Of a stretch of DNA of 64,000 nt, positions 421 through 39,882 are shown in pieces (within the stretch, counting starts at the first letter, position 1; each line of letters opens with the position of its first letter). Made by a program: the position numbers and the translations under genes. Under the pieces are notes generated by a model. That model had not been told where the DNA came from. It made no database searches and saw only the letters and a program-made list of their open reading frames with translations. This DNA is from Octopus vulgaris. Taxonomy: Eukaryota. The DNA is taken from contig OX597827.1 of the NCBI GenBank assembly GCA_951406725.2, positions 11,532,001 to 11,596,000 on the forward strand. The letters run 5' to 3'.

Positions 421-1103
421 CTAGCAGTATCACCCGGCGTTGCTCGGGTTTGTAAAGGAAATAACTATATAAGCATTTTTAGAGAGTTATAGCCAAAAAA
501 TAGCAAAAGAATGCATTAAAAATGGAAAAAAAATGATGGTAAATTTTTTTTAAAATCGTTGACTCATCGTAGACTACTTCCCTTTTATAATAGCGAAAAA
601 ATGCATTAAAATGGAAAAAAATTATGGTAAATTTTTTTTAAATCGTAGACTCATCGTAGACATTTTTAGAGAGTTACTTCCCTTATATAATAGCGAAAAA
701 AATGCATTAAAATGGAAAAAAATGATGGTAAATTTTTTTAAAAATCGTTGACTCATCGGAGACATTTTTAGAGAGTTACTTCCCTTATATAATAGCGAAA
801 AAATGCATTAAAATGGAAAAAAATTATGGTAAATTTTTTTTAAATCGTAGACTCATCGTAGACATTTTTAGAGAGTTACTTCCCTTTTATAATAGCGAAA
901 AAATGCATTAAAATGGAAAAAAATGATGGTAAATATTTTTTTAAATCGTAGACTCATCGTAGACGCGCACTAATACCCAGAAGGGCTCGATATGAATCAC
1001 GACTATAAGTGAGGTTGGAGGCGACTGCACCGCAAAATGTGGGAGTAGTTAGGAATCTAAATCGTAGGAGACAGACACACAACCTCACTTTTATATATAA
1101 AGA
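421..1103 (-). mobile_element. Non-autonomous Helitron with internal ~100-bp tandem repeat
   Basis: Minus strand A|TCTTTATATATAAAAG ... CCCGAGCAACGCCGGG hairpin ... CTAG|T: 5' TC, 3' hairpin plus CTAG, A/T insertion site, no TSD. Confidence 0.85.
474..963. repeat. ~100-bp minisatellite, about 5 copies, inside the Helitron
   Basis: Unit catttttagagagttacttcccttatataatagcg...atcgtagactcatcgtaga starts at ~474, ~573 (shortened), 661, 763, 863. Confidence 0.9.
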
Positions 1104-4212: not shown

Positions 4213-4417
4213 TACTCTTTACTCATTTACTCTTTTACTTGTTTCAGTCGTTTGACTGCGGCCATGCTGGAGCACCGCCTTTAGTCGAGCAAATCAACCC
4301 CGGGACTTATTCTTTTGTAAGCCCAGTACTTATTCTATCGGTCTCTTTTGCCGAACCGCTAAGTGACGGGGACGTAAACACACCAGCATCGGTTGTCAAG
4401 CAATGCTACGGGGACAA

Positions 4418-4450
<33 letters not shown>

Positions 4451-4738
4451 CCGGAGTAAACACATAAATGTGAAACAAGGTGGAAAAAAGAGTACTCAAA
4501 TACCAGTGGTAGAGTAATATGCTTTATTTTTTTCTGCTGCTTAAAATAAAGTATATATATATATATACATATATACGACAGGCTTCTTTCAGTTTCCGTC
4601 TACCAAATCCACTCACAAGGCATTGGTTGGCCCGGGGCTATAGCAGAAGACACTTGCCCAAGATGCCATGCAGTGGGACTGAACCCGGAACCATGTGGTT
4701 GGTAAGCAAGCTACTTACTACACAGCCATTCCTGCACC
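4213..4738 (-). mobile_element. SINE family A with ~100-bp foreign insert (4451-4551) in its TA tract
   Basis: Reverse complement of the 3441-3865 consensus. Confidence 0.9.
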
Positions 4739-5089
4739 TAATACTATGTTTAAGAGGAATAACTTCACCAAATTCATAAATAGTTTTTTTTTTGTTTTCA
4801 GTGTATTATACTTCTTTGTAGGTGTTAATTCTGCTGTGGTCGTTTTCTTGAGGAAACATTTAGGCTTCACTGTGGTTCTGTGAGTTGATTTAACCAATCA
4901 GAAATTAAGGCCAATCAAAAGCTAGTAATTTGTGAGCTTTCTTTTCTTTCTTAATTTTCTTCTTTTTTTTTTTTGTTGGCTGACTGGTAAGAAGTTTGTT
5001 TCCCAAACACATGGTTCTGGGTTCAGCCCCACTGAGTGGCACATTGGGCAAGTGTTTTCTTCTATAGCTTTGGACCAACCAAAGCCTTG

Positions 5090-5275
5090 TGAGTGCTTAG
5101 CAGTATTTAATCAGTCTTTATGTTCTGAGTTCAAATTCTGCCGAGGTCGACTTTACCTTTCAGCTTTCAGGGTTGATAAATGATGTACCAGTTACTTACT
5201 TAAGTCAATCTAATTGACTGCCCTCCCCCTCCCCAAAAATTTCGGGCCTTGTGCCTCAGGTAGAAAAGATTATTA
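5090..5275 (+). mobile_element. SINE family B variant (alternative tail)
   Basis: gagttcaaattctgccgaggtcgacttt...gggttgataaa; tail aatttcgggccttgtgcctc. Confidence 0.65.
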
Positions 5276-5700
5276 GCAGCCATGAGTAAGCTATCTCCTT
5301 CCACTCTCTCTCTCTTTGACATTTAACTACTACTTAGACATCTTTTTCCAACAGTTGTTGCTGTCCATTATGTATCTGTAAATATTTTGATCTTACATGC
5401 ATAAACATAAGAACGTATGTTTTCTATAATACTTTTACAACACAGTGTTCAATGGACTTTGTAAAAACATGAAAATAACTATGTATATTCTCGCAAACTT
5501 TACTTGTTACATTACCTCATTTGATGTCATAAATTAAGATTTATTATATTCAATGTTGAACTCTGATGTTTTTCAAACCTTTACTCATAATCCACCTGCT
5601 GTGCTTCTACTTATGAAATAAATCTACCAAGAAAATCAGAAGAAGATTATTTCCAGTTGGTATCAAGAAAATTAAAGGAAAACTTATATGCATTTCTATG

Positions 5701-6115
5701 AGCAGGAGTGGCTGTGTGGTAAGTAGCTTGCTAACCAACCACATGGTTCCGGGTTCAGTCCCACTGCATGACATCTTGGGCAAGTGTCTTCTGCTATAGC
5801 CTCGGGCCGACCAATGCCTTGTGAGTGGATTTGGTAGATGGAAACTGAAAGAAGCCTGTCGTATATATGTATATATATATGTATGTGTGTGTATGTGTTT
5901 GTGAGTCTGTGTTTGTCCCCCTAGCTTTGCTTGACAACCGATGCTGGTGTGTTTACGTCCCCGTCACTTAGCGGTTTGGCAAAAGAGACCGATAGTATAA
6001 GTACTGGGCTTACAAAGAATAAGTCCTGGGGTCGATTTGCCCGACTAAAGGCGGTGCTCCAGCATGACCGCAGTCAAATGACTGAAACAAGTAAAAGAGT
6101 AAAGAGGAAAGAGAG
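5701..6115 (+). mobile_element. SINE family A
   Basis: Near-identical to 3441-3865. Confidence 0.9.
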
Positions 6116-6244
6116 AGCATTTTTCAAATTTCTTCCATGACTATAAAGACTATAATGAAACTAAAACACTGGTGCAGGTGTTGCTGTGTGGTAAGAACAT
6201 TCTTACCACACAGCCACAGCCTTTGCATTAATCAAAACAGTAAA

Positions 6245-6562
6245 GACATATGGCTTAGTGGTTAGGGTATCCAGCTCACGGTCATAAGATCATGAGTTCA
6301 ATACCTGGCAGTGCATCGTTTCCTTGAGCAAGACATTTTATTTCATGTTGCTCCAAACCACTCAGCTAACAAAAATGAGTAATACTTATATTTCAAAGGG
6401 CCAGCCTTGTCACGTTTGGCATGTCCACGCTGAATGTCCAAGAGAACTATTTTACAAGTATCTGTGTTTGTAGAGTGCTCAGTCACTTCCACGTTAATTC
6501 CAGAAATAGGCTGTTCCATTGATCAGATCAACTGGAACCCTCACCATTATGACTGATAGAGT
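6245..6562 (+). mobile_element. tRNA-derived SINE family C (diverged)
   Basis: tggcttagtggttaggg...gagttcaatacc...ccttgagcaagaca; matches the reverse complement of 23806-24125. Confidence 0.75.
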
Positions 6563-6695
6563 ACAAGTTTCAATTAAGACTAGAACTGGTACTAATATAG
6601 ACCTATAAGCAATAATTTCCCGCCTCCTCACAGCTCCATGCAAGTTTAATTATCAAATAATATTTATTGTAATTTGTCATTTTTGCAAAGTAGAT

Positions 6696-6995
6696 GTTCC
6701 TTCTCGAGCCACACCTGGCTCATAAGAGCCGATTTCCCAGTTTCCTTGGCGTATAGGTTCTCCACCTGGACGGGATGCCGGTCCGTCGCAGGTGAGCTGC
6801 AAGATGCAGGAGGAAAGAGTGAGAGAAAGTTGTGGTGAAAGAGTTAGCAGAAGTATTGCCATTACCTTCTGCCAGAGCCACGTGAAGCTTAGGTGTTTTG
6901 CTCATAAACACATACATCGCCCAGACTGAGATTCGAAACCACGATCCCTCGACTGTAAGTCCGTTGCTCTAACCACTAGGCCATGTGCCTCCACA
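6696..6995 (-). mobile_element. tRNA-derived SINE family D (tail type 1)
   Basis: Minus head gtggaggcacatggcctagtggttagagc...gtttcgaatctc; matches 21708-22015. Confidence 0.8.
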
Positions 6996-7099
6996 AAGTA
7001 GATGGCTAATGATGGATCCATTTCAATGACCGAGACTCTGTCATGGGTCCAAATACTTGCTAAACCCCTCTACAAGTTGGTCATATATTGTATGATTAA

Positions 7100-7324
7100 C
7101 CCTTTTGTTATCATATTCATTTTAAATTACATGGTTTTTGTTTTAATTAATTTTTAAAATAATGAAGAATTTAGTAAAAAAAACCCTTGTCCTCATTAAA
7201 CTGGTTTTTGGGAACACAAATTAACATGAAATTTTAATGAAAGGTGTTAATTTAGACTACTTTAAAACACAAAGGTTATATGGTGGAACCAGGGGAATTC
7301 TGAGGTTGGTTGGTATCAAAAGGG
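7100..7324. mobile_element. piggyBac-like MITE, family 2
   Basis: ttaa|cccttttg ... caaaaggg|ttaa: TIR plus TTAA TSD. Confidence 0.75.
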
Positions 7325-7717
7325 TTAAGTACAAATGAGAAACTAATGCTAAATGTTCCTTGCTTTGACTCACTGAGACTATTTGGATGGCAGCAACACC
7401 TGATAGCAAATCTTGCTTCATTTTCGTTTTTTTTTTTTTCTCTAACATTTTTGTGTCTGAAATAACTTCTGCACAAGAAATTAATGGAGTTAAAATTAAT
7501 GTTTGTCATTAGATTGTAGTGGACAGCTCTACACTAGATTGCTAAAATGTTTTTGATCACATACGATGTTATGTGTTAAGCCTTGACACCATTTAAAACT
7601 AATCGATAAATGTTATACTGTTCTGCACAAAAGACGAAGAAAAAAAGAATCCAAAATACTGGTTTGTCCAACACATTGTTATTTCCAGCAATCACAAGCA
7701 TTGAAATTTCACCAATT

Positions 7718-10249: not shown

Positions 10250-10490
10250 AGTACCAGTTGTCAAAGCAGTTGGTGGGGTACAACACAGCCACAAAGACAC
10301 ACACACACACAGATAATTACATATATGTAACAGGCAGCTTTCAGTTTCTGTCTATAAATTCACTCACAAGGCTTTAGTTGGTCTACGCTTATAGATGAAA
10401 ATGCTTGCCCAAGATGCCACACAGCAAGACTGAACCCAGAAACATATGGTCGGGAAGCAAACCTCTTACCATGCAGCCATGCCTGCACCT
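10250..10490 (-). mobile_element. SINE family A, diverged partial copy
   Basis: ttcactcacaaggcttt...ttgcccaagatgccac...cagccatgcctgcacc. Confidence 0.7.
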
Positions 10491-10582
10491 ATATTATATA
10501 TATATATATATATGCACATACACATATACATATATACATACATGCATACATACATATGTGTGTATATATATATATATATAAT

Positions 10583-10872
10583 AGATCTCTGAACGAGATA
10601 TAAACAGTAACCGCTCGACAACGTAAGGGGTATTAGCCATCGAAGACCGGTGCTTACCATGCATTGACGAGAGGCAATTACCTTGAAACTATAGTCCGTA
10701 TGTAGTACTCGGGTCATCGAGGGAGGATGACCTCCCTTTGCAAATAACACAAGGGCACTGAGATAGTGTCTAAAGTCCTTCTGATGACGTTGATCGCCTG
10801 GGGCTAAAAGCATCAGTAACACCCCCCCCCCCAGTGGCTAGCCACATTCAGATGGCTAATACCCCTTACGTT
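10583..10872 (+). mobile_element. Small TA-flanked element with 22-bp inverted repeat, probable Penelope-like fragment
   Basis: aacgtaaggggtattagccatc (10620-10641) and gatggctaataccccttacgtt (10851-10872) are exact reverse complements; contains a hammerhead-like motif. Confidence 0.55.
10658..10702 (+). ncRNA. Minimal type-I hammerhead ribozyme-like motif (degenerate core)
   Basis: catgca-TTGACGA-GAGG caatta CCTT-GAAA-CTATAG-TC-cgtatg; palindromic stem III ACTATAGT; GUC cleavage triplet; core position 3 is T instead of C. Confidence 0.55.
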
Positions 10873-11384
10873 ATATATATATATATATATATATAGCTAA
10901 GTTGAACTGTCTAAAGTCGTAAGACACCTGCAGTTTTTGTCCTGCTATTACTATTATTGTTTTTTGTATTTATATTCGTGTGGCATCGTCCGTTTTTCTG
11001 TCCTTGTTTTGTATACATTCGATCCTTTTTCCAAGAAATCTAATGCTCGTAGCTTAGTTTTTCCTTGGGGCTGGCCGGATCAAAGCGATCTCAAGAGTAA
11101 TCAGCCGAAATTGCGAGGATGATCCGGTTCTTGACTGAAGATTAGAGGCTTCGAATGACCTGTCCGTTTTTTGTGTCGTCTATTTGAGTGTTTTGCGTTC
11201 TTGTCCCATTTTGTATTTTTATATATATTTTTATATATATAAAAGATAAAAGATAAAAGATATATATGATTTATGTCTCTCTCTGTATGCATACATACAT
11301 ACATATATATACTTATATACACACAAACGTGCACACACACAAATATATACATACACACATAAATATACATATATATATATATAT

Positions 11385-11650
11385 TTTCTGAAACTGATTT
11401 GAAAATCGGAAATCCACCTGAAGATTGTCATTAGAAGACATGAAACAATTGTAGTGGCGGTTTTTTTACTTTTTTTAACTTTTTATTAAAATTTTATGTA
11501 TTGATTAAGTCTTTCCTAGTTTGTTTTGCAAAATAGTGGTTTTGTCTCTAATTAATATTATATAATATTTTACTATAAAATTGGATTCAATCCTAAATCT
11601 GATTTTTTTCCCTGTAAATTTAGATTTATTCCCTAATATTTATTATTATA
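11385..11650 (+). mobile_element. TA-flanked probable Penelope-like fragment carrying a hammerhead motif
   Basis: Hammerhead motif near the 5' end, T-rich tail; a related tail lies inverted at ~10130-10200. Confidence 0.55.
11414..11457 (+). ncRNA. Minimal type-I hammerhead ribozyme motif
   Basis: CCAC-CTGAAGA-tTGTC attagaa GACAt-GAAA-CAATTG-TA-GTGG: intact CUGANGA and GAAA core, stems I and II, palindromic stem III ACAATTGT, GUA cleavage triplet (after 11453). Confidence 0.7.
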
Positions 11651-11986
11651 TATATATATACACTCATGCATATATATATATACATATATACATACATATA
11701 TATATATATGCATATATATATGTATATATATATAAACAAACATATAGATATAGATTTATATATACATATATACATACATACATACATACATACATACATG
11801 ATGATGATGATGATATATATATATGTATATATAAAAATTGGGGATGCTAAACTCTCCTGTTCAAAAATGTAAGGATACAGATAGTGTGTTATGTAGCCAG
11901 CTGGAGACAATGTTTTCTGGGGCTAATTAACTGTAACATTCGTCCCAACAGGGACTGCCACATTATGTTGGAAAATAATCTTTACT

Positions 11987-12030
<44 letters not shown>

Positions 12031-12052
12031 GGCAAATAGGGATGAATGCATA

Positions 12053-12079
<27 letters not shown>

Positions 12080-12083
<4 letters not shown>

Positions 12084-12196
12084 GTATGCATGTATGTATG
12101 TATGTATGTATGTATGTATGTATGTATGTATGTATGTATGTATGTATGTATGTATGTATGTATGTATGTATGTATGTATGTATGTATGTATGTATG
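12080..12196. repeat. (TATG)n microsatellite
   Basis: Pure tetranucleotide array. Confidence 0.95.
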
Positions 12197-12967
12197 CGTG
12201 AATAATTGGTTATAACAATGTATATATATTCATTCATGACCTACGATCTATTGGTATTCTATTCTGCTTGTTACAATTCATAATATTGTTTTAGAGAATA
12301 AAGATTCTTAGGAATGTTGTTTTACGATAAGAATGAAAATTAATAATTACAGTTAAGAGAAATAGCCGAAAAATTTAACAAAAATAACAGGTATCATTAA
12401 GATGTGGACGAGGATGGAGAATGAAGAAGAGAAATGACCATTTCTGGCATTTTAAAACGTATATAATGGACTGAACGAACTATTAGTACTAAACTTATGT
12501 AGGAGAAGCAAGGTTAACTCAACGCCTGTAAAATCTGAAATTGGAATATAAGGGAGATAACTAAGTGTAGAATAATGTGCAAATAAGGACGCCTCTATGT
12601 GGACACTCGGTCTTCCAGAAATAGCAGTCAAACTTAACTACTTAATCAGTCTGATAAAACTATCTTATAAAAACGGATTCATTAGATAATGTTATCTGGA
12701 TTACGGAAGAAAAAAAAAAAAAACAGTGATGCTTTTGATTGCAACGGTATCTTGACATGCGTTTGCCTGTTTTATCAACATTGAACTGGGATTAAATAAC
12801 AACAACAACAAAAATGAAAAGAACAACAGCTGCAGCGACGACAACAACAACAACAACACTAAACACGACTCAGTTCTGAAGAGTATTTATTCATAATCTC
12901 AATGCTGGGGTGGGAGCATGAGTGCACACACACGCATATATGTATATATATATATAATGTATATATA

Positions 12968-13270
12968 GTTATGTTTCGGAATGGTCATTTTGCCAGTTTA
13001 GCCAATAAAAACACATGCACTATATATTTGGTGTTACTTTGCTTCAGTGTTATTTTTATTTTTTACATTAATCTTAATCTTATTTCGGCCAGAGTTCTTT
13101 CGTCACACTCCTGTGACCGCATCGGTGGTCCTTTGTTTTCTTCTCACTTATTTGTGTCTCTCCTTACTAACCGTCAGCCATTTTGTATTTATTGGCTATA
13201 CTGGCAAAATGACCATTCCGAAATATAACAATATCTGTTTCAACACACGACTTCACATAAAAAATCTTGC

Positions 13271-13276
<6 letters not shown>
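12968..13276 (-). mobile_element. Small TA-flanked element with ~42-bp inverted repeat, probable Penelope-like fragment
   Basis: gttatgtttcggaatggtcattttgccagtttagccaataaa (12968-13009) is inverted at 13188-13229; hammerhead-like motif on the minus strand. Confidence 0.55.
13089..13128 (-). ncRNA. Variant minimal hammerhead-like motif
   Basis: Minus strand CCA-CCGATGCG-GTCAC aggagt GTGAC-GAAA-GAAC-TC-TGG; core deviates from CUGANGA. Confidence 0.4.
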
Positions 13277-13346
<70 letters not shown>

Positions 13347-13454
13347 CATATACATATATATAACTATAATGTATGTATGTATGTATATATATATACATAT
13401 ATATACATATACATATATATGTATACATACACATACACACACACACATCCTTTT

Positions 13455-13835: not shown

Positions 13836-14065
13836 GCGGCGAGCTGGCAGAAACGTTAGCACGCCGGGCGAAATGCTTAGCGGTATTTCGTCTGCGTTAC
13901 ATTGTGAGTTCAAATTCCGCTGAGGTCGACTTTGCCTTTCATCCTTTCGGGGTCGATAAATTAAGTACCAGTTATGCACTGGGGTCGATGTAATTGACTT
14001 AATACCTATGTCTGTCCTTGTTTGTCCCCTCTCTGTTTAGCCCCTTGTGGGTAATAAAGAAATAG
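13836..14065 (+). mobile_element. SINE family B
   Basis: Full copy gcggcgagctggcagaaacgttagc...gtaataaagaaata. Confidence 0.85.
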
Positions 14066-14249: not shown

Positions 14250-15680
14250 ACAATCTAAGAATGAGGGGTAAGATCTTTGAGCAATGTCAGGAATTTGGTT
14301 GAAGACATAAAAGAAATTACTTGCAGAGAGTATACAAGAAAAGTGAGAAAACTATTGCCGTCGAAGCTAAATGCTTAAAATGTTATTGAAGCAATAAATT
14401 CAAGAGGGGTACGACTAATCAGATATCAAGTTTGAATTGTAGGGTGGACAAAAAAATTATATACAGAAACTTGACAGAAAATGTAGAAAGTTGTTGACCA
14501 TGCATGGAACCCACCATCTGAAAGCTGATATTAACTGTTTGTACCTGAAGAGAGGCCAGGGTGGAAGAGGCTTAATTGTGCTGGGGAAGAGTATGTACCA
14601 ATAGAAAGAAAAAGCTGACTAGAATATTTACAGAACATCGCAATGAAACTACGAAAGATGGTGAATAAGGAACAGGCAATCAAGTGTGGAATAAGGGTAA
14701 AGAAGAAGAATGAAATTCAAAGAGAGCATGTTAGGCAGATAGAAGAGAAACCTTTTAAGTTTCTCTAGGCAGATAGAAGAGAAACCTTTTGGTTTGTCTA
14801 GTCAGATAGAAGAGAAACCTTTTAGCTTCTCTAGGCAGATAGAAGAGAAACCTTTTGGTTTCTCTTGGCAGATAGAAGAGAAACCTTTTAGTTTCTCTTG
14901 GCAGTTAGAAGAGAAACCTTTTGGTTTCTCTTGGCACATAGAAGAGAAACCTTTTGGTTTCTCTAGGCAGATAGAAGAGAAACCTTTTAGCTTCTCTTGA
15001 CAGATAGAAGAGAAACCTTTTGGTTTCTCTAGGCAGATAGAAGAGAAACCTTTTAGCTTCTCTTGGCAGATAGAAGAGAAACCTTTTGGTTTCTCTTGGC
15101 AGATAGAAGAGAAACCTTTTGGAGAGCCATTGAAGAAGTATATAGAACAAAATCTTGGGCTTGGTTAAAAAAAAGGGCAATTAAAAAAAGGAAACAGAGA
15201 GCCTAATAGTTGCAGCCCAGGATCAAGAGATAAAAACATACAACTGAGGGAAATTGTACATAAGAAGAATGTGTCAGAAAAATGTAGAATCTGTGGAACT
15301 TGGAATGAGACAGTGGCACACATTGTTACAGAATGTCCCAAGTTGGCACAGGAAGAATATAAGAAATGTAGGCATGACCAAGTAAGAAAGGTTTTACACC
15401 GGAAGATTTGCCAGAAATGAGGATTTGAAGATGGAGACATATGGTGTGACTATCAGGTTGAATGAGTGCTGGAATCAAAGAATCGCAGGATTCTATAGGA
15501 CTTTCATATTCAAACAGACAACAAAGTAGAAAATAATAGGCCAGGCATAACAATAGGCAAGGAAAAGTGTAGTTGCCTACTAATAGATCCATCTTGTCTG
15601 TTTGATTCCAGGATTGTAAAGAAAGAAGGTAAAAAAAAAAAAATACAATCCTTTAAAATTTGAAATTGCAAGAATTTGGA
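14250..15680 (+). mobile_element. Decayed R4/Dong-like non-LTR retrotransposon (RT C-terminal region, zinc knuckle, restriction-like endonuclease)
   Basis: Frameshifted peptides LDRKCRKLLTMHG...LYLKRGQGGRGL, WLKKGQLKKETESLIVAAQDQ, CRICGTWNETVAHIVTECPKLA, RHDQV, IQTDNKVENNRP, LLIDPSC. Confidence 0.8.
14733..15120. repeat. 33-bp minisatellite, 11 full units plus one partial
   Basis: Unit (a/t)ggcagatagaagagaaaccttttggtttctct, head-to-tail with no spacers. Confidence 0.95.
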
Positions 15681-16169: not shown

Positions 16170-16562
16170 TGGGCTAAACATAGAGGAGACAAACAAGGAC
16201 GGACAAAGGGATTAAGTCGATTATATTGATCCCAGTGCGTAATTGGTACTTAATTTATTGACCCTGAAAGGACGAAAGGCAAAGTTAACCTCGGCGGAAT
16301 TTGAACTCAGAACATGACAGCAGATGAAATACCAATTTCTTTACGACCCACAAGGGGCTAAACACAGAGAGGACAAACAAAGACAGACAAACGGATTAAG
16401 TCGATTATATCGACCCCAGTGCATAACCGGTACTTATTTAATCAACCCCGAAAGGATAAAAGGCAAAGTCGACCTCGGTGGAATTTGAACCCAGAACGTA
16501 GTGGCAGATGAAATATCGCTAAGCATTTCACCCGGGGGGGCTAACGTTTCTGCCAGCTCACC
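16170..16562 (-). mobile_element. Two tandem SINE family B copies
   Basis: gggctaaacatagagg...ggaatttgaactcagaac occurs twice. Confidence 0.8.
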
Positions 16563-37039: not shown

Positions 37040-37154
37040 TAATAATAATAATGTCGTATATTTTACCCCAGTGTCACTTTGATGGCATGCACTGCTCTCT
37101 CACTCAATAATAATAATAATGATAATAATAATAATGATAATAATAATAATAATG

Positions 37155-37206
<52 letters not shown>

Positions 37207-37241
37207 TAATAATAATGATAATAATAATAATGATAATAATG

Positions 37242-37272
<31 letters not shown>

Positions 37273-37360
37273 TAATAAGAATAATGATAATAATAATAAT
37301 GATAATAATAATAATGATAATAATAATGATAATGATAATAATAATAATAATGATAATGAC

Positions 37361-37413
<53 letters not shown>
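36765..37413. repeat. (AAT/GAT)n arrays starting ~45 bp after the protocadherin donor
   Basis: Two blocks (~36765-37052 and 37106-37413) separated by ~55 bp of unique sequence. Confidence 0.95.
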
Positions 37414-37414
<1 letters not shown>

Positions 37415-37450
37415 CATAGTTTTCACATAGAAATAATGGTTTGTTCTTGG

Positions 37451-37459
37451 ACTTACCTG
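37451..37459 (-). promoter_or_regulatory. 5' splice donor ending the protocadherin exon
   Basis: Perfect consensus CAG|GTAAGT; protein-like sequence stops here and an (ATT)n array follows. Confidence 0.85.
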
Positions 37460-39838
37460 TGTAGGTGTTGGCAGCTTTCTGGTTATAGTAGATGTTTTCC
37501 AATCATACTGTAATTCCTCTTCAGTGAAAAGCTGACTTCTTGACCTCATCAGCTGAATATTTCTATTTCTCATCTCATCTGAATTTCCTGTTATGACAGC
37601 AGAATTGTTCGTTTGAGAGATTAAGTGTCTCTTTTCTCTAAAAGACCGATTTGATGTATCTACTGCAGTCATGTGCAGAGCATTTCTCTTATGACATCTG
37701 ACAATGCATGCTGTTATAGAAACGACAACAACAACTGATACAATAACAGATGCCAAAGTTATTAGTATTACCAAATTAACATGTATTCTGTTATCCAAAA
37801 GTATGTGTTTGTCTTTCATCATTTTCAATGTTTTATTGCTAACTATCAATGTTAAAGATAAATTGGTGGTCGCAGTCAAAACAGGAGTGCCGCTATCTCT
37901 GACTGCACACTGTAGTTTATACAAGCCAGCATCATTCTGGTACACTGTACGAGAGAATGACAACACACCTGTGTATGAATCAATTGTAAACAATCGTTTT
38001 TCATTTCCTTTAACTATTTCATATTTGAAAAAAGCATTTCTTGGGCTATCTCTGTCAGCAACTTTCAATACTGAGATGTTATTTCTACTGTTTGGATGAT
38101 AGTAGACATCTAGACTAAATGGGTTAACACTTGGGAAAATGAAATGTGGAGCGTTGTCATTTTCGTCCATGACTTCAACAATAACATTTGCTTTATTACT
38201 TAGCGACGGTATTCCATTATCTCTCACCCACACTTGAAATTTGTATATATCCTGCCTTTCGCGATCTAGCGACTGTGTTGTGGAAATAAATCCATTATCA
38301 GTTATCTTAAAAGGAAGGGATGCATCATTTGAATTTTGCAGAGAAAAAGTCAGTCGTTTTCCAAGTCCGAGATCTTCATCAGTTGCATTGATGAATCCGA
38401 CAGGGAAATTAGGTTCCTCATTTTCATAAGTGAGGAACTTGAATGTATTTTTAGTAAACTGAGGCTGTACATCATTGACATCAGTCACTTGGATGGAGAA
38501 AGCTCTTTCAGTCTTTTGAGGAGGGAATCCTTTATCAGAGCACACAATTACAATTTGGTAATGATCTTCCTTTTCTCGATCAACTGGATTTTTGACTATG
38601 ATTTTGAATTCTTTAGAATTCATAGTTAAGAGCTGGAATTTATCATGTTGTAGATTACAACTAACTATGCCATTTTGTCCAATATCATCATCGGTGATCA
38701 TTACATATGCAATAAAACTGCCAACTTTAGTGTCCTCGGTTATTACAGCAGTGTTTTCGTCAAGAGCAGAGACAAAGTTGACATCAATTTTTGGTTGGTT
38801 ATTGCGGTCATTAATAACATTTACTAGAACGAGAGCAATGGAACTTAAGGGCGGACTTCCTTTGTCTGTTGCTTCAACAAAAAGCATGTAAGTGACTTTT
38901 TCATTAAAATCAAATTCATTGCTAAGAAATATCTCCCCAGTTATTTGATTTAAAATAAACTGATATTTTGCAACATCTGAAGTTTTGGAACTAAAACGGT
39001 AAACTATTTTGCCATTTTTACCTGAGTCCAAATCATTAGCGAATAGAGTTGTTACAGGAATAGATTTTTGGTGTCTGTTTCTTATGGAGATGTTATAAAC
39101 ATTCTGTGAAAAAATTGGGGAGTTGTCATTTTCATCCGCAACTGCTATATATACAGTCAAAACGCTTTGTTTGACAGGTGATCCTCCATCTCTTGCAATA
39201 ACTTCCAAAACATATCGGTCTTTTGCTTCTCGATCAAGTTTTTCTTCTAAAATAATTTCTAATTTACTGGTTCCATCAATTCTCTTGGAATATAATAAAG
39301 CAAATGGTTCGTCAGAACTCTTTTCAAGTTGATATGTAATCTGAGAATTAAGAACACCTACATCTTTGTCTATGGCATTTGGAACTGAAATTTTGGTTCC
39401 TCTGCCATCTCTTTCTGAAAACTGGATACTAACTTGTGTTAATGGGAATTCTGGTTGATGGTCATTAACATCATCAATGACAATTTTTATTTTTAAAATC
39501 TTCATAAAAGTCTTTGCTCGACGGACAGCAATTTTGATTGTTTTGAAACATTCTTTGGCATATGAACAAAGAGATTCTGCATCCAATACCTGAGCTGTGT
39601 AAAGTTTTCCGTTTTTAGAAACATTGAATAACTGTTTATCAGCGGCACCGCTCTGTTGTATTATGCTAAACCACACCTTATTGCGGTCTTTCATTTGTAC
39701 ATTGTCCAGCAATTTTGTATTTGTCGCAATATTTCCGATATATGTAGAAGGACTCCTGCCTTCCTCCACATGGTAAACAAGATCTACACAAAGAGTTTTG
39801 GTTAGGAATGAGAGTAACACACAAAGTGAAAGCAGCAT
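37457..39838 (-). CDS. Protocadherin, large first coding exon (signal peptide, 6 EC repeats, TM, proximal cytoplasmic domain; 794 codons; gene continues after splice)
   Basis: Starts MLLSLCVLLSFLTKTLC (signal peptide). Cadherin motifs LDAE/LDRE/VDRE, DxNDxxP (DVNDHQP, DENDNSP, DVNDVQP, DENDNAP), AxDxGxP; C-x5-C in EC1 (CSYAKEC); TM VILITLASVIVSVVVVVSITACIV. Ends ...KLPTPTQ at CAG|GTAAGT, phase 0. An in-frame TGA at 39874-39872 precedes the ATG. Confidence 0.95.
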
Positions 39839-39882
39839 ATTCTTTTCTGTTGCAGTTGTAATCACAAAATGTCAAAATGATT

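What the first reader, a model, noticed from the sequence alone, without database searches (positions are those of the whole stretch)
10583..13276. Three unrelated mini-elements with hammerhead-ribozyme-like motifs within 2.7 kb
Seen: three short TA-flanked elements with no obvious mutual sequence similarity each carry stem I, a CUGANGA-like core, stem II, GAAA, a tiny stem III and NUH (10658-10702 +, 11414-11457 +, 13089-13128 -). Two have a palindromic stem III (ACTATAGT, ACAATTGT). Known: minimal type-I hammerheads with palindromic stem III occur in Penelope-like retroelements and cleave as dimers. Inference: several small ribozyme-bearing non-autonomous families that insert into (TA)n tracts; I do not know whether they are already catalogued for octopus.
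Basis: partly seen in the sequence, partly recalled or inferred. Interest (0 to 1): 0.72.

Follow-up and report, generated by a model that had tools for sequence, protein, structure and literature searches.

The report
Ribozyme-bearing Penelope ends, cut-site chimeras
These three short inserts are end-pieces of three different Penelope-type jumping-gene families, each carrying a small RNA motif predicted to cut itself, and relatives of one are fused to another family exactly at both predicted cut points, which likely records cutting inside living cells.

Summary
The three motifs are real, and each belongs to a multicopy family that inserts into (TA)n. They are not all non-autonomous.

- Element 2 is the intron-less end (pLTR) of a Hydra-type Penelope-like element (PLE); a 1.03-kb GT-AG intron is removed exactly at 11404/11405.
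- Element 3 is the end of an RT + GIY-YIG PLE, Nematis-like by eye.
- Element 1 is one worn copy of a 357-bp non-coding tandem unit, retrozyme-type; no parent ORF was found.

Sister families keep the hammerhead fold by compensatory changes. Family 1 has U3·G8 in 99 of 100 listed copies. At 3 separate loci its 5' half ends exactly at the predicted cut and joins another PLE family's predicted 3' cut product; no such join occurs elsewhere in about 60 nt tested. This is fossil, not direct, evidence of cleavage in vivo. The window copies of elements 1 and 3 carry damaging changes. The 2.7-kb clustering is most likely chance in a TA-rich patch.

Hammerheads in PLEs are known, including one octopus Hydra family. 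The scan noted these kinds before on other DNA of this genome (spliced Hydra ends, a ~356-bp unit, U6 joined at cuts).

The parts
10579..10872 (+). Element 1: two-armed insertion of a 357-bp non-coding tandem-unit family (retrozyme-type), between TA tracts
   Evidence: 97% identical to unit of L016; family copies on many contigs, tandem up to 3.5 units
10579..10641 (-). Element 1 inverted 5' arm: the ~45-nt tail plus 22 nt of the unit end; gives a 22-bp inverted repeat with 10851-10872
10658..10702 (+). Hammerhead 1 (U3·G8 core, palindromic stem III, predicted cut after 10696); this copy has G>A at 10663, which breaks the closing pair of stem I
11389..11647 (+). Element 2: spliced solo pLTR of a Hydra-type PLE
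   Evidence: 97% and 95% identical to the two pLTRs of full-length L208
11389..11404 (+). Remnant of exon 1, joined at 11404/11405 to exon 2; the ~1030-nt GT-AG intron of long copies is absent
11414..11457 (+). Hammerhead 2 (canonical core, U·U at base of stem II, palindromic stem III, predicted cut after 11453); matches family majority
12968..13278 (-). Element 3: 3' pLTR piece (13190-12968) plus inverted arm (13184-13278) of an RT + GIY-YIG PLE, Nematis-like
13087..13131 (-). Hammerhead 3 (family core with C at position 9; this copy also U4C at 13124; predicted cut after 13092)
10490..10580 (.). TA-type microsatellite target left of element 1 (others at 10873-10896, 11636-11833, 12936-12967, 13276-13429)

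Best explanation
The three inserts are independent copies from three Penelope-type families (a spliced end of a Hydra-type element, an end of a second ORF-bearing element, and a non-coding tandem unit), likely written into TA repeats by Penelope reverse transcriptase from uncut RNA. Mechanism: (1) transcription likely starts inside the terminal repeat (inferred from clustered 5' ends); (2) in family 2 the intron is removed from about half of the copies (shown in DNA; splicing of the RNA is inferred); (3) the GIY-YIG nuclease likely nicks both strands of a TA tract, and reverse transcription likely starts at either of two fixed internal sites 45-80 nt apart, giving a sense arm and often an inverted arm (two fixed 3' ends shown; enzymology taken from PMC11167929); (4) the hammerheads likely cut only a minority of RNAs, and cut ends are occasionally joined to other cut RNAs, by ligation or an end-to-end RT jump, before copying (joins shown, cleavage inferred); (5) family 1 has no ORF and would borrow a PLE enzyme, possibly copying an RNA circle (inferred).
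For: Element 3: 20 of 20 loci holding the endonuclease C-terminus have element 3 at 94-98% identity 310-690 nt after the stop; open frames of 695-825 codons with RT and GIY-YIG-type motifs. Element 2: L208 has 97.5%-identical direct repeats around a Hydra-type ORF; two more copies have ORF pieces of 557 and 471 codons. Intron 1027-1051 nt in 12 of 15 loci, all 15 with a GT donor; 52 spliced and 48 unspliced among the first 100 of 179 exact junction matches. Two fixed TA-followed 3' ends in 34 of 35, 49 of 51 and 47 of 47 arm ends (families 1, 2, 3). Fold: 6 pairs with two-sided changes between family 1 and a sister, 1 in family 2; position 3-8 reads C-G, U·G or U-A and stem III stays palindromic across sisters. 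Cut-site joins: 5 matches at 3 loci, all at the predicted cut; controls 0 at -4, 0 true at +3, 0 in a downstream 30-nt window.
Against: No cleavage assay. No family-1 3' half preceded by foreign bases was found (0). 5' starts do not cluster at the cut in any family sample. Family 3 shows no foreign join at its cut (7 matches, all point changes or small indels), and its C9 core may be weak. The partner family's own hammerhead is atypical (short stem I, C in the GAAA box), so its cut site is a prediction too. Covariation rests on a few sister subfamilies: 29 of 500 and 389 of 500 shuffles reach the number of doubly changed pairs. BLAST samples were the 40 best of 1,200-2,700 candidates and favour copies like the query. 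No parent ORF for family 1. Clade calls are by motif, not by tree.
Confidence: 0.85

Rival explanations
1. All three are self-propagating non-autonomous families. The short spliced or truncated forms of families 2 and 3 would be re-transcribed from an internal promoter and spread on their own.
For: Short forms are numerous. PLE promoters are internal (PMC2377424, passages). One spliced copy, L231, extends 22 nt upstream of the usual start.
Against: Short forms match the ORF-linked ends at 94-98%. Inversion junctions differ from copy to copy, as expected for independent events. No tandem spliced units were seen in the 30 family-2 loci inspected.
Confidence: 0.12
2. The hammerheads are inert relics carried along in the terminal repeat, and the cut-site joins come from one old chimera or an RT pause.
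For: Family-wide U3·G8 and C9 cores. In the Anolis PLE, hammerhead mutants did not affect insertion in vitro and no reads ended at the cut (PMC11167929).
Against: The three chimeras have different flanks, and the partner part of the C15 locus is a different subfamily variant from C1 and C5. The junction has no microhomology. Sister families preserve the pairing.
Confidence: 0.12
3. Elements 1 and 3 are MITEs (DNA transposons with terminal inverted repeats) that happen to contain hammerhead-like words.
For: 22-bp and ~45-bp inverted repeats in the window; TA flanks.
Against: The inverted arm varies in length between copies and includes a one-sided tail; tandem units occur; element 3 is joined to an RT ORF.
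Confidence: 0.01
4. The cluster of three is a selected regulatory unit, for example for the neighbouring protocadherin.
For: Each family occurs once in the 64 kb, all within 2.7 kb. A protocadherin exon lies 24 kb away.
Against: Two of the three motifs are damaged in these copies. The patch has 15 of the window's 80 (TA)6+ tracts in 4 kb. 9 of 161 sampled 3-kb loci carry a second of these families, so triplets are expected somewhere in 2.8 Gb.
Confidence: 0.03

Closest known systems
Minimal type I hammerheads in pLTRs of animal PLEs (Cervera and de la Pena 2014, PMC4209133; parts 1-2 of 4 read)
   Same: Short stem I, small palindromic stem III, extra base after position 9, mostly solitary copies from truncated PLEs, U3-A8 variant in a sister subfamily.
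   Different: Family-wide U3·G8 and C9 cores are not described in the parts read; that paper had no in vivo evidence of cleavage.
Hydra clade of PLEs, incl. Hydra-1_Obim (Craig et al. 2021, PMC8557442; section 11, passages, supplement hits and part 54)
   Same: DKT, CxCX5C linker, CxxC and CxH, C-terminal GIY-YIG, hammerhead, (TA)n target.
   Different: Different sequence from Hydra-1_Obim (compared by eye); KWK in place of RWK; unit ~5.7 kb with a 1-kb intron; about half of junction copies are intron-less, whereas PLEs are described as retaining introns.
Nematis clade of PLEs (Fig. S2 alignment of PMC8557442)
   Same: CX4CxxC linker closely spaced to the GIY-YIG box; C, C, H, H residues present.
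   Different: DKS in place of DKG; no tree was built, so the clade is not settled.
Animal non-LTR retrozymes (PMC7229834, passages; bioRxiv 10.64898/2026.07.22.740005, parts 1-2 of 5)
   Same: Non-coding ~350-bp tandem unit with one type I hammerhead per unit; proposed PLE dependence.
   Different: Family 1 shows PLE insertion marks (inverted arm, two fixed ends); circular RNA is not shown; no cephalopod example was found in my searches.
U6/LINE-1 chimeras made by RtcB ligation (Moldovan et al. 2019, PMC6789731; abstract and outline)
   Same: A 2',3'-cyclic-phosphate end joined to a 5'-OH end and then retrotransposed would explain the joins.
   Different: Here both ends would come from ribozyme cuts in two different retroelement families; a template jump is not excluded.

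Membership tests
Type I hammerhead ribozyme | Core CUGANGA / GAAA / NUH | tested here: met
   Element 2 canonical in 43 of 43 copies. Family 1 differs only by U3 (40 of 42 identical cores). Family 3 has C9 in 53 of 56, the majority core in 51.
Type I hammerhead ribozyme | Three helices supported by covariation | tested here: met
   88.9% and 93.6% of cells paired, above all slid controls; rests on few sister subfamilies; not counted for family 3.
Type I hammerhead ribozyme | Rfam hammerhead model match | tested here: not met
Type I hammerhead ribozyme | Self-cleavage at the predicted base | not testable with these tools
   Indirect only: cut-site joins at 3 loci for family 1; one insertion at the cut for family 2; none for family 3.
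EN+ Penelope-like elements | RT plus GIY-YIG ORF linked to the terminal repeat (elements 2 and 3) | tested here: met
   Pfam RVT_1 weak for family 3 (E=0.0025), BLASTP to a Neptune-type ORF E=1e-9; no relevant Pfam hit for the Hydra-type pieces.
EN+ Penelope-like elements | Linked ORF for element 1 | tested here: not met
   PLE ORF hits near family-1 loci belong to separate insertions; longest open frame in a tandem array 82 codons.
EN+ Penelope-like elements | Tandem/inverted pLTR arrangement and one-sided tail | tested here: met
   Both orientations in 18 of 26, 23 of 30 and 27 of 30 loci; two fixed 3' ends. Queries for families 1 and 3 included the inversion.
EN+ Penelope-like elements | Target-site duplication | not testable with these tools
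   Hidden by (TA)n flanks.
Hydra clade (element 2 family) | DKT, CxCX5C linker, CxxC and CxH in the endonuclease | tested here: met
   Read directly in L208, L253, L254 against section 11 of PMC8557442.
Hydra clade (element 2 family) | RWK motif; length generally under 3 kb | tested here: inconclusive
   KWK variant; unit ~5.7 kb because of a long 3' region and intron.
Hydra clade (element 2 family) | Placement in RT phylogeny | not tested
   No reference sequences held as data.
Nematis clade (element 3 family) | CX2-5CxxC linker with short spacer, CCHH | tested here: inconclusive
   Fits by eye; no tree.
Non-LTR retrozyme (element 1 family) | Non-coding 170-400-nt tandem units, one type I hammerhead each | tested here: met
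   357-bp units, up to 3.5 in tandem.
Non-LTR retrozyme (element 1 family) | Abundant circular RNA | not testable with these tools
   Only assembled contigs were available.

The most novel reading that the evidence does not exclude
Hammerhead cut sites act as exchange points between different retroelement families in vivo: the 5' cut product of a non-coding U3·G8 ribozyme repeat is ligated to the 3' cut product of an unrelated Neptune-type PLE, and the hybrid RNA is copied into DNA on both strands. This would show that weak, variant-core PLE hammerheads cut in the germ line and would give a route for new ribozyme-bearing elements to arise.
Probability: 0.6. Interest if true: 0.68.

Novelty: new member of a known kind. 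Interest (0 to 1): 0.45.

Why it matters
The three inserts are ordinary products of PLE activity. Their families bear on two open questions. First, whether the weak PLE hammerheads cut in vivo: PMC4209133 had no in vivo evidence, and PMC11167929 found no reads ending at the cut. The junctions at two predicted cut sites are a countable genomic record, here for a U3·G8 core. Second, why PLEs seem to keep introns: about half of the family-2 junction copies are precisely intron-less, and the two arms of one insertion usually agree in splice state, which favours a sense RNA template over the antisense idea in PMC3846280.

Tried and rejected
- Rfam: no hammerhead model matched.
- Expression: no RNA holder listed. 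Contigs of runs only guessed to be RNA cover the family-1 unit and show a 356-nt go-back joint in 3 of 4 runs, and one contig in 1 of 4 runs skips the family-2 intron. Tandem and spliced forms also exist as DNA, so this says nothing on circles, splicing or cleavage.
- Parent ORF for family 1: Neptune-type ORFs upstream of L005 and L029 end in their own 3' end and a TA tract. Same-strand pairs 1.4-3.6 kb apart are segmental duplications. A tail search (437 matches, 30 loci read) gave sister non-coding units only.
- L254 first looked like a spliced arm on an unspliced element; it is unspliced on both arms.
- A cap-derived G at family-2 5' ends is explained by the inverted arm and is not claimed.
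- The inverted-repeat finder was swamped by microsatellites.
- The 33-nt insert at a family-2 cut has no Rfam match; it comes from another TA-flanked repeat.
- Literature: 'hammerhead ribozyme + octopus', 'retrozyme + octopus', a PLE-intron search and two chimera/ligation searches listed no paper describing these families or joins between two ribozyme products. The O. vulgaris repeat paper PMC13282606 has 0 mentions of ribozyme or hammerhead in its main text. Repbase, Dfam, subscription papers and bioRxiv supplements were not seen and may name these families.
- I found no measured rate for a U3·G8 or C9 core.

Full report
Setting. The window is G000:C14:11532001-11596000 of a 2.8-Gb genome.

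Observation. All three motifs are present. A strict descriptor finds elements 1 and 2 in the window against 0.28 hits per shuffled window, and none with a palindromic stem III in 40 shuffles. Element 3 fails that descriptor because this copy has two core deviations. Rfam gives no hammerhead match.

Families. Each element retrieved 40 scored places of about 1,200-2,700 first-look candidates, with full-length matches mostly 90-98% identical, on many contigs. Exact patterns give firmer lower bounds: 226 matches for the family-1 hammerhead and 179 for the family-2 junction. After removing overlapping loci, the core was identical in 40 of 42, 43 of 43 and 51 of 56 copies. The window copy of element 1 has lost the closing pair of stem I (39 of 42 copies have the intact 5' strand). 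The window copy of element 3 has a private U4C (1 of 56). Element 2 matches its family.

Fold. Aligning family 1 with a 68%-similar sister (18 distinct rows), 6 of 16 pairs change on both sides and 88.9% of cells pair, against 12-51% for slid controls. For family 2 with its sister, 1 of 14 pairs changes on both sides, in the palindromic stem III. These counts reflect few events between subfamilies. Further sisters show C-G, U·G and U-A at positions 3 and 8, and four different palindromes in stem III. Family 1 has U3 in 99 of the first 100 listed matches. U3-A8 is a known natural covariant (PMC4209133; PMC3088659 passages).

Element 3. A longer copy ran into an endonuclease C-terminus. All 20 loci fetched with that piece carry element 3 at 94-98% identity 310-690 nt after the stop. 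Three extended loci have open frames of 695-825 codons with the RT aspartate pair, a CX4CxxC linker and a GIY-YIG-type box. The short linker spacing resembles Nematis in Fig. S2 of PMC8557442; no tree was made. In the sample most like the window copy, 23 of 29 sense arms start 27-34 nt after a TATA-like word, which suggests a transcription start.

Element 2. L072 continued past the 3' end into an ORF. The extended locus L208 is pLTR-ORF-pLTR with 97.5% direct repeats. Its ORF is broken by an internal inversion and a frameshift, but shows DKT, CxCX5C, CxxC and CxH, the Hydra marks in section 11 of PMC8557442. In long copies, exon 1 is followed by a GT donor (15 of 15) and an intron of 1027-1051 nt ending in AG (12 of 15 measurable); the window copy joins the exons exactly. 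Of the first 100 listed junction matches, 52 are spliced and 48 unspliced (counted by eye). Among 17 distinct two-armed insertions with both arms classifiable, 10 were spliced on both arms, 6 unspliced on both and 1 mixed (Fisher p=0.0006); repeats of a locus and two loci with an unclassified arm were dropped, and the loci were chosen by spliced or unspliced queries. PLEs are described as retaining introns (PMC8557442; PMC2377424), and an antisense template was proposed (PMC3846280). These copies need a sense RNA. Earlier scan notes reported this for Hydra ends elsewhere; I had found the intron before reading them, and the arm test was prompted by them.

Element 1. The family is a 357-bp unit, tandem up to 3.5 times, with inverted arms. 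The longest open frame in an array is 82 codons. No parent ORF was found. It fits the animal non-LTR retrozymes (PMC7229834; bioRxiv 10.64898/2026.07.22.740005), with circular RNA untested.

Shared mechanism. In all three families the arms end at two fixed sites followed by TA repeats. This matches the two internal RT start sites and two-strand extension shown for the Anolis PLE, where uncut RNA is the main template (PMC11167929 parts 1-2 of 4). The genome has intact RT + GIY-YIG ORFs whose 3' ends carry similar minimal hammerheads.

Evidence for cutting. One family-1 copy stopped exactly at the predicted cut and continued into the 3' end of a Neptune-type family. A genome-wide pattern found 5 such matches at 3 loci: one in a segmental duplication and one with both arms chimeric. 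The partner family usually has its own predicted cut at that same base (98 of the first 100 listed of 1,678 matches). A search allowing the join anywhere in a 30-nt span gave the same 5, plus one unrelated chance hit. A downstream span gave 0. Breaks 4 nt upstream gave 0; 3 nt downstream gave 1 match, which is a sister subfamily. The partner part at C15 is a different variant from C1 and C5, so there are at least two independent events. One family-2 copy has a 33-nt piece of another repeat inserted at its cut, with 1-2 nt of ambiguity. Against: no family-1 3' half with foreign upstream bases, no foreign joins for family 3, and no 5' starts clustered at the cuts. Ligation as for U6/LINE-1 (PMC6789731 abstract) and an RT jump both need cut ends; I cannot tell them apart. 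The scan has noted U6 joined at cuts in this genome; its listings showed no join between two ribozyme products.

Cluster. Each family occurs once in the window. The 10-14 kb patch has 15 of the 80 (TA)6+ tracts, and 9 of 161 sampled loci carry a second of these families. Chance in a TA-rich patch is the simplest reading.

Verdict. Real motifs, known kind, three new family members; an octopus Hydra PLE with a hammerhead is already listed. The extra value lies in the cut-site chimeras and the intron-less copies. Hammerhead numbering and the expected harm of U4C or a broken 1.1-2.1 pair are recalled, apart from the passages.

Noticed in passing
window 37100-39871 (-): Large single exon of a protocadherin (5 Pfam cadherin stretches plus Cadherin_2), 24 kb from the elements.
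   Followed up: partly
L114 (G000:C11:50846155-50849418) ~2330-2615; L179 ~888-1300: Two insertions join a Neptune-type ORF fragment directly to the end of another family (sisters of families 2 and 1). Both junctions fall at nearly the same ORF position, a possible template-switch hot spot and a hint of cross-mobilisation.
   Followed up: partly
L005 and L029: 2 of 30 family-1 loci sit in the TA tail directly behind the same Neptune-type family, in the same orientation; a candidate mobilising partner or only nested targeting.
   Followed up: partly
L299-L328 (partner family of the chimeras): A minority form has ~190 extra nt beginning a few bases after the predicted cut, and several copies have small deletions just upstream of the cut; not explained by simple splicing.
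   Followed up: no
L111, L112, L121, L124 3' ends: Neptune-type PLEs of this genome carry minimal hammerheads with C-G, U-A and A-U at core positions 3 and 8.
   Followed up: no
L208, L253, L254: The Hydra-type ORF contains long asparagine-rich stretches, like those reported for rotifer Penelope ORFs (PMC3846280, passages).
   Followed up: no
L255 (G000:C8:118519400-118527200) 4255-7465: One insertion has a spliced inverted arm and an unspliced sense arm, so two RNA templates can serve one event.
   Followed up: partly
window 10320-10490 and 13838-13990: Common SINE-like repeats (identification recalled, not tested) flank the region.
   Followed up: no
window 499-964, 14732-15122, 16171-16515: Tandem arrays with periods of about 101, 33 and 184 bp.
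   Followed up: no
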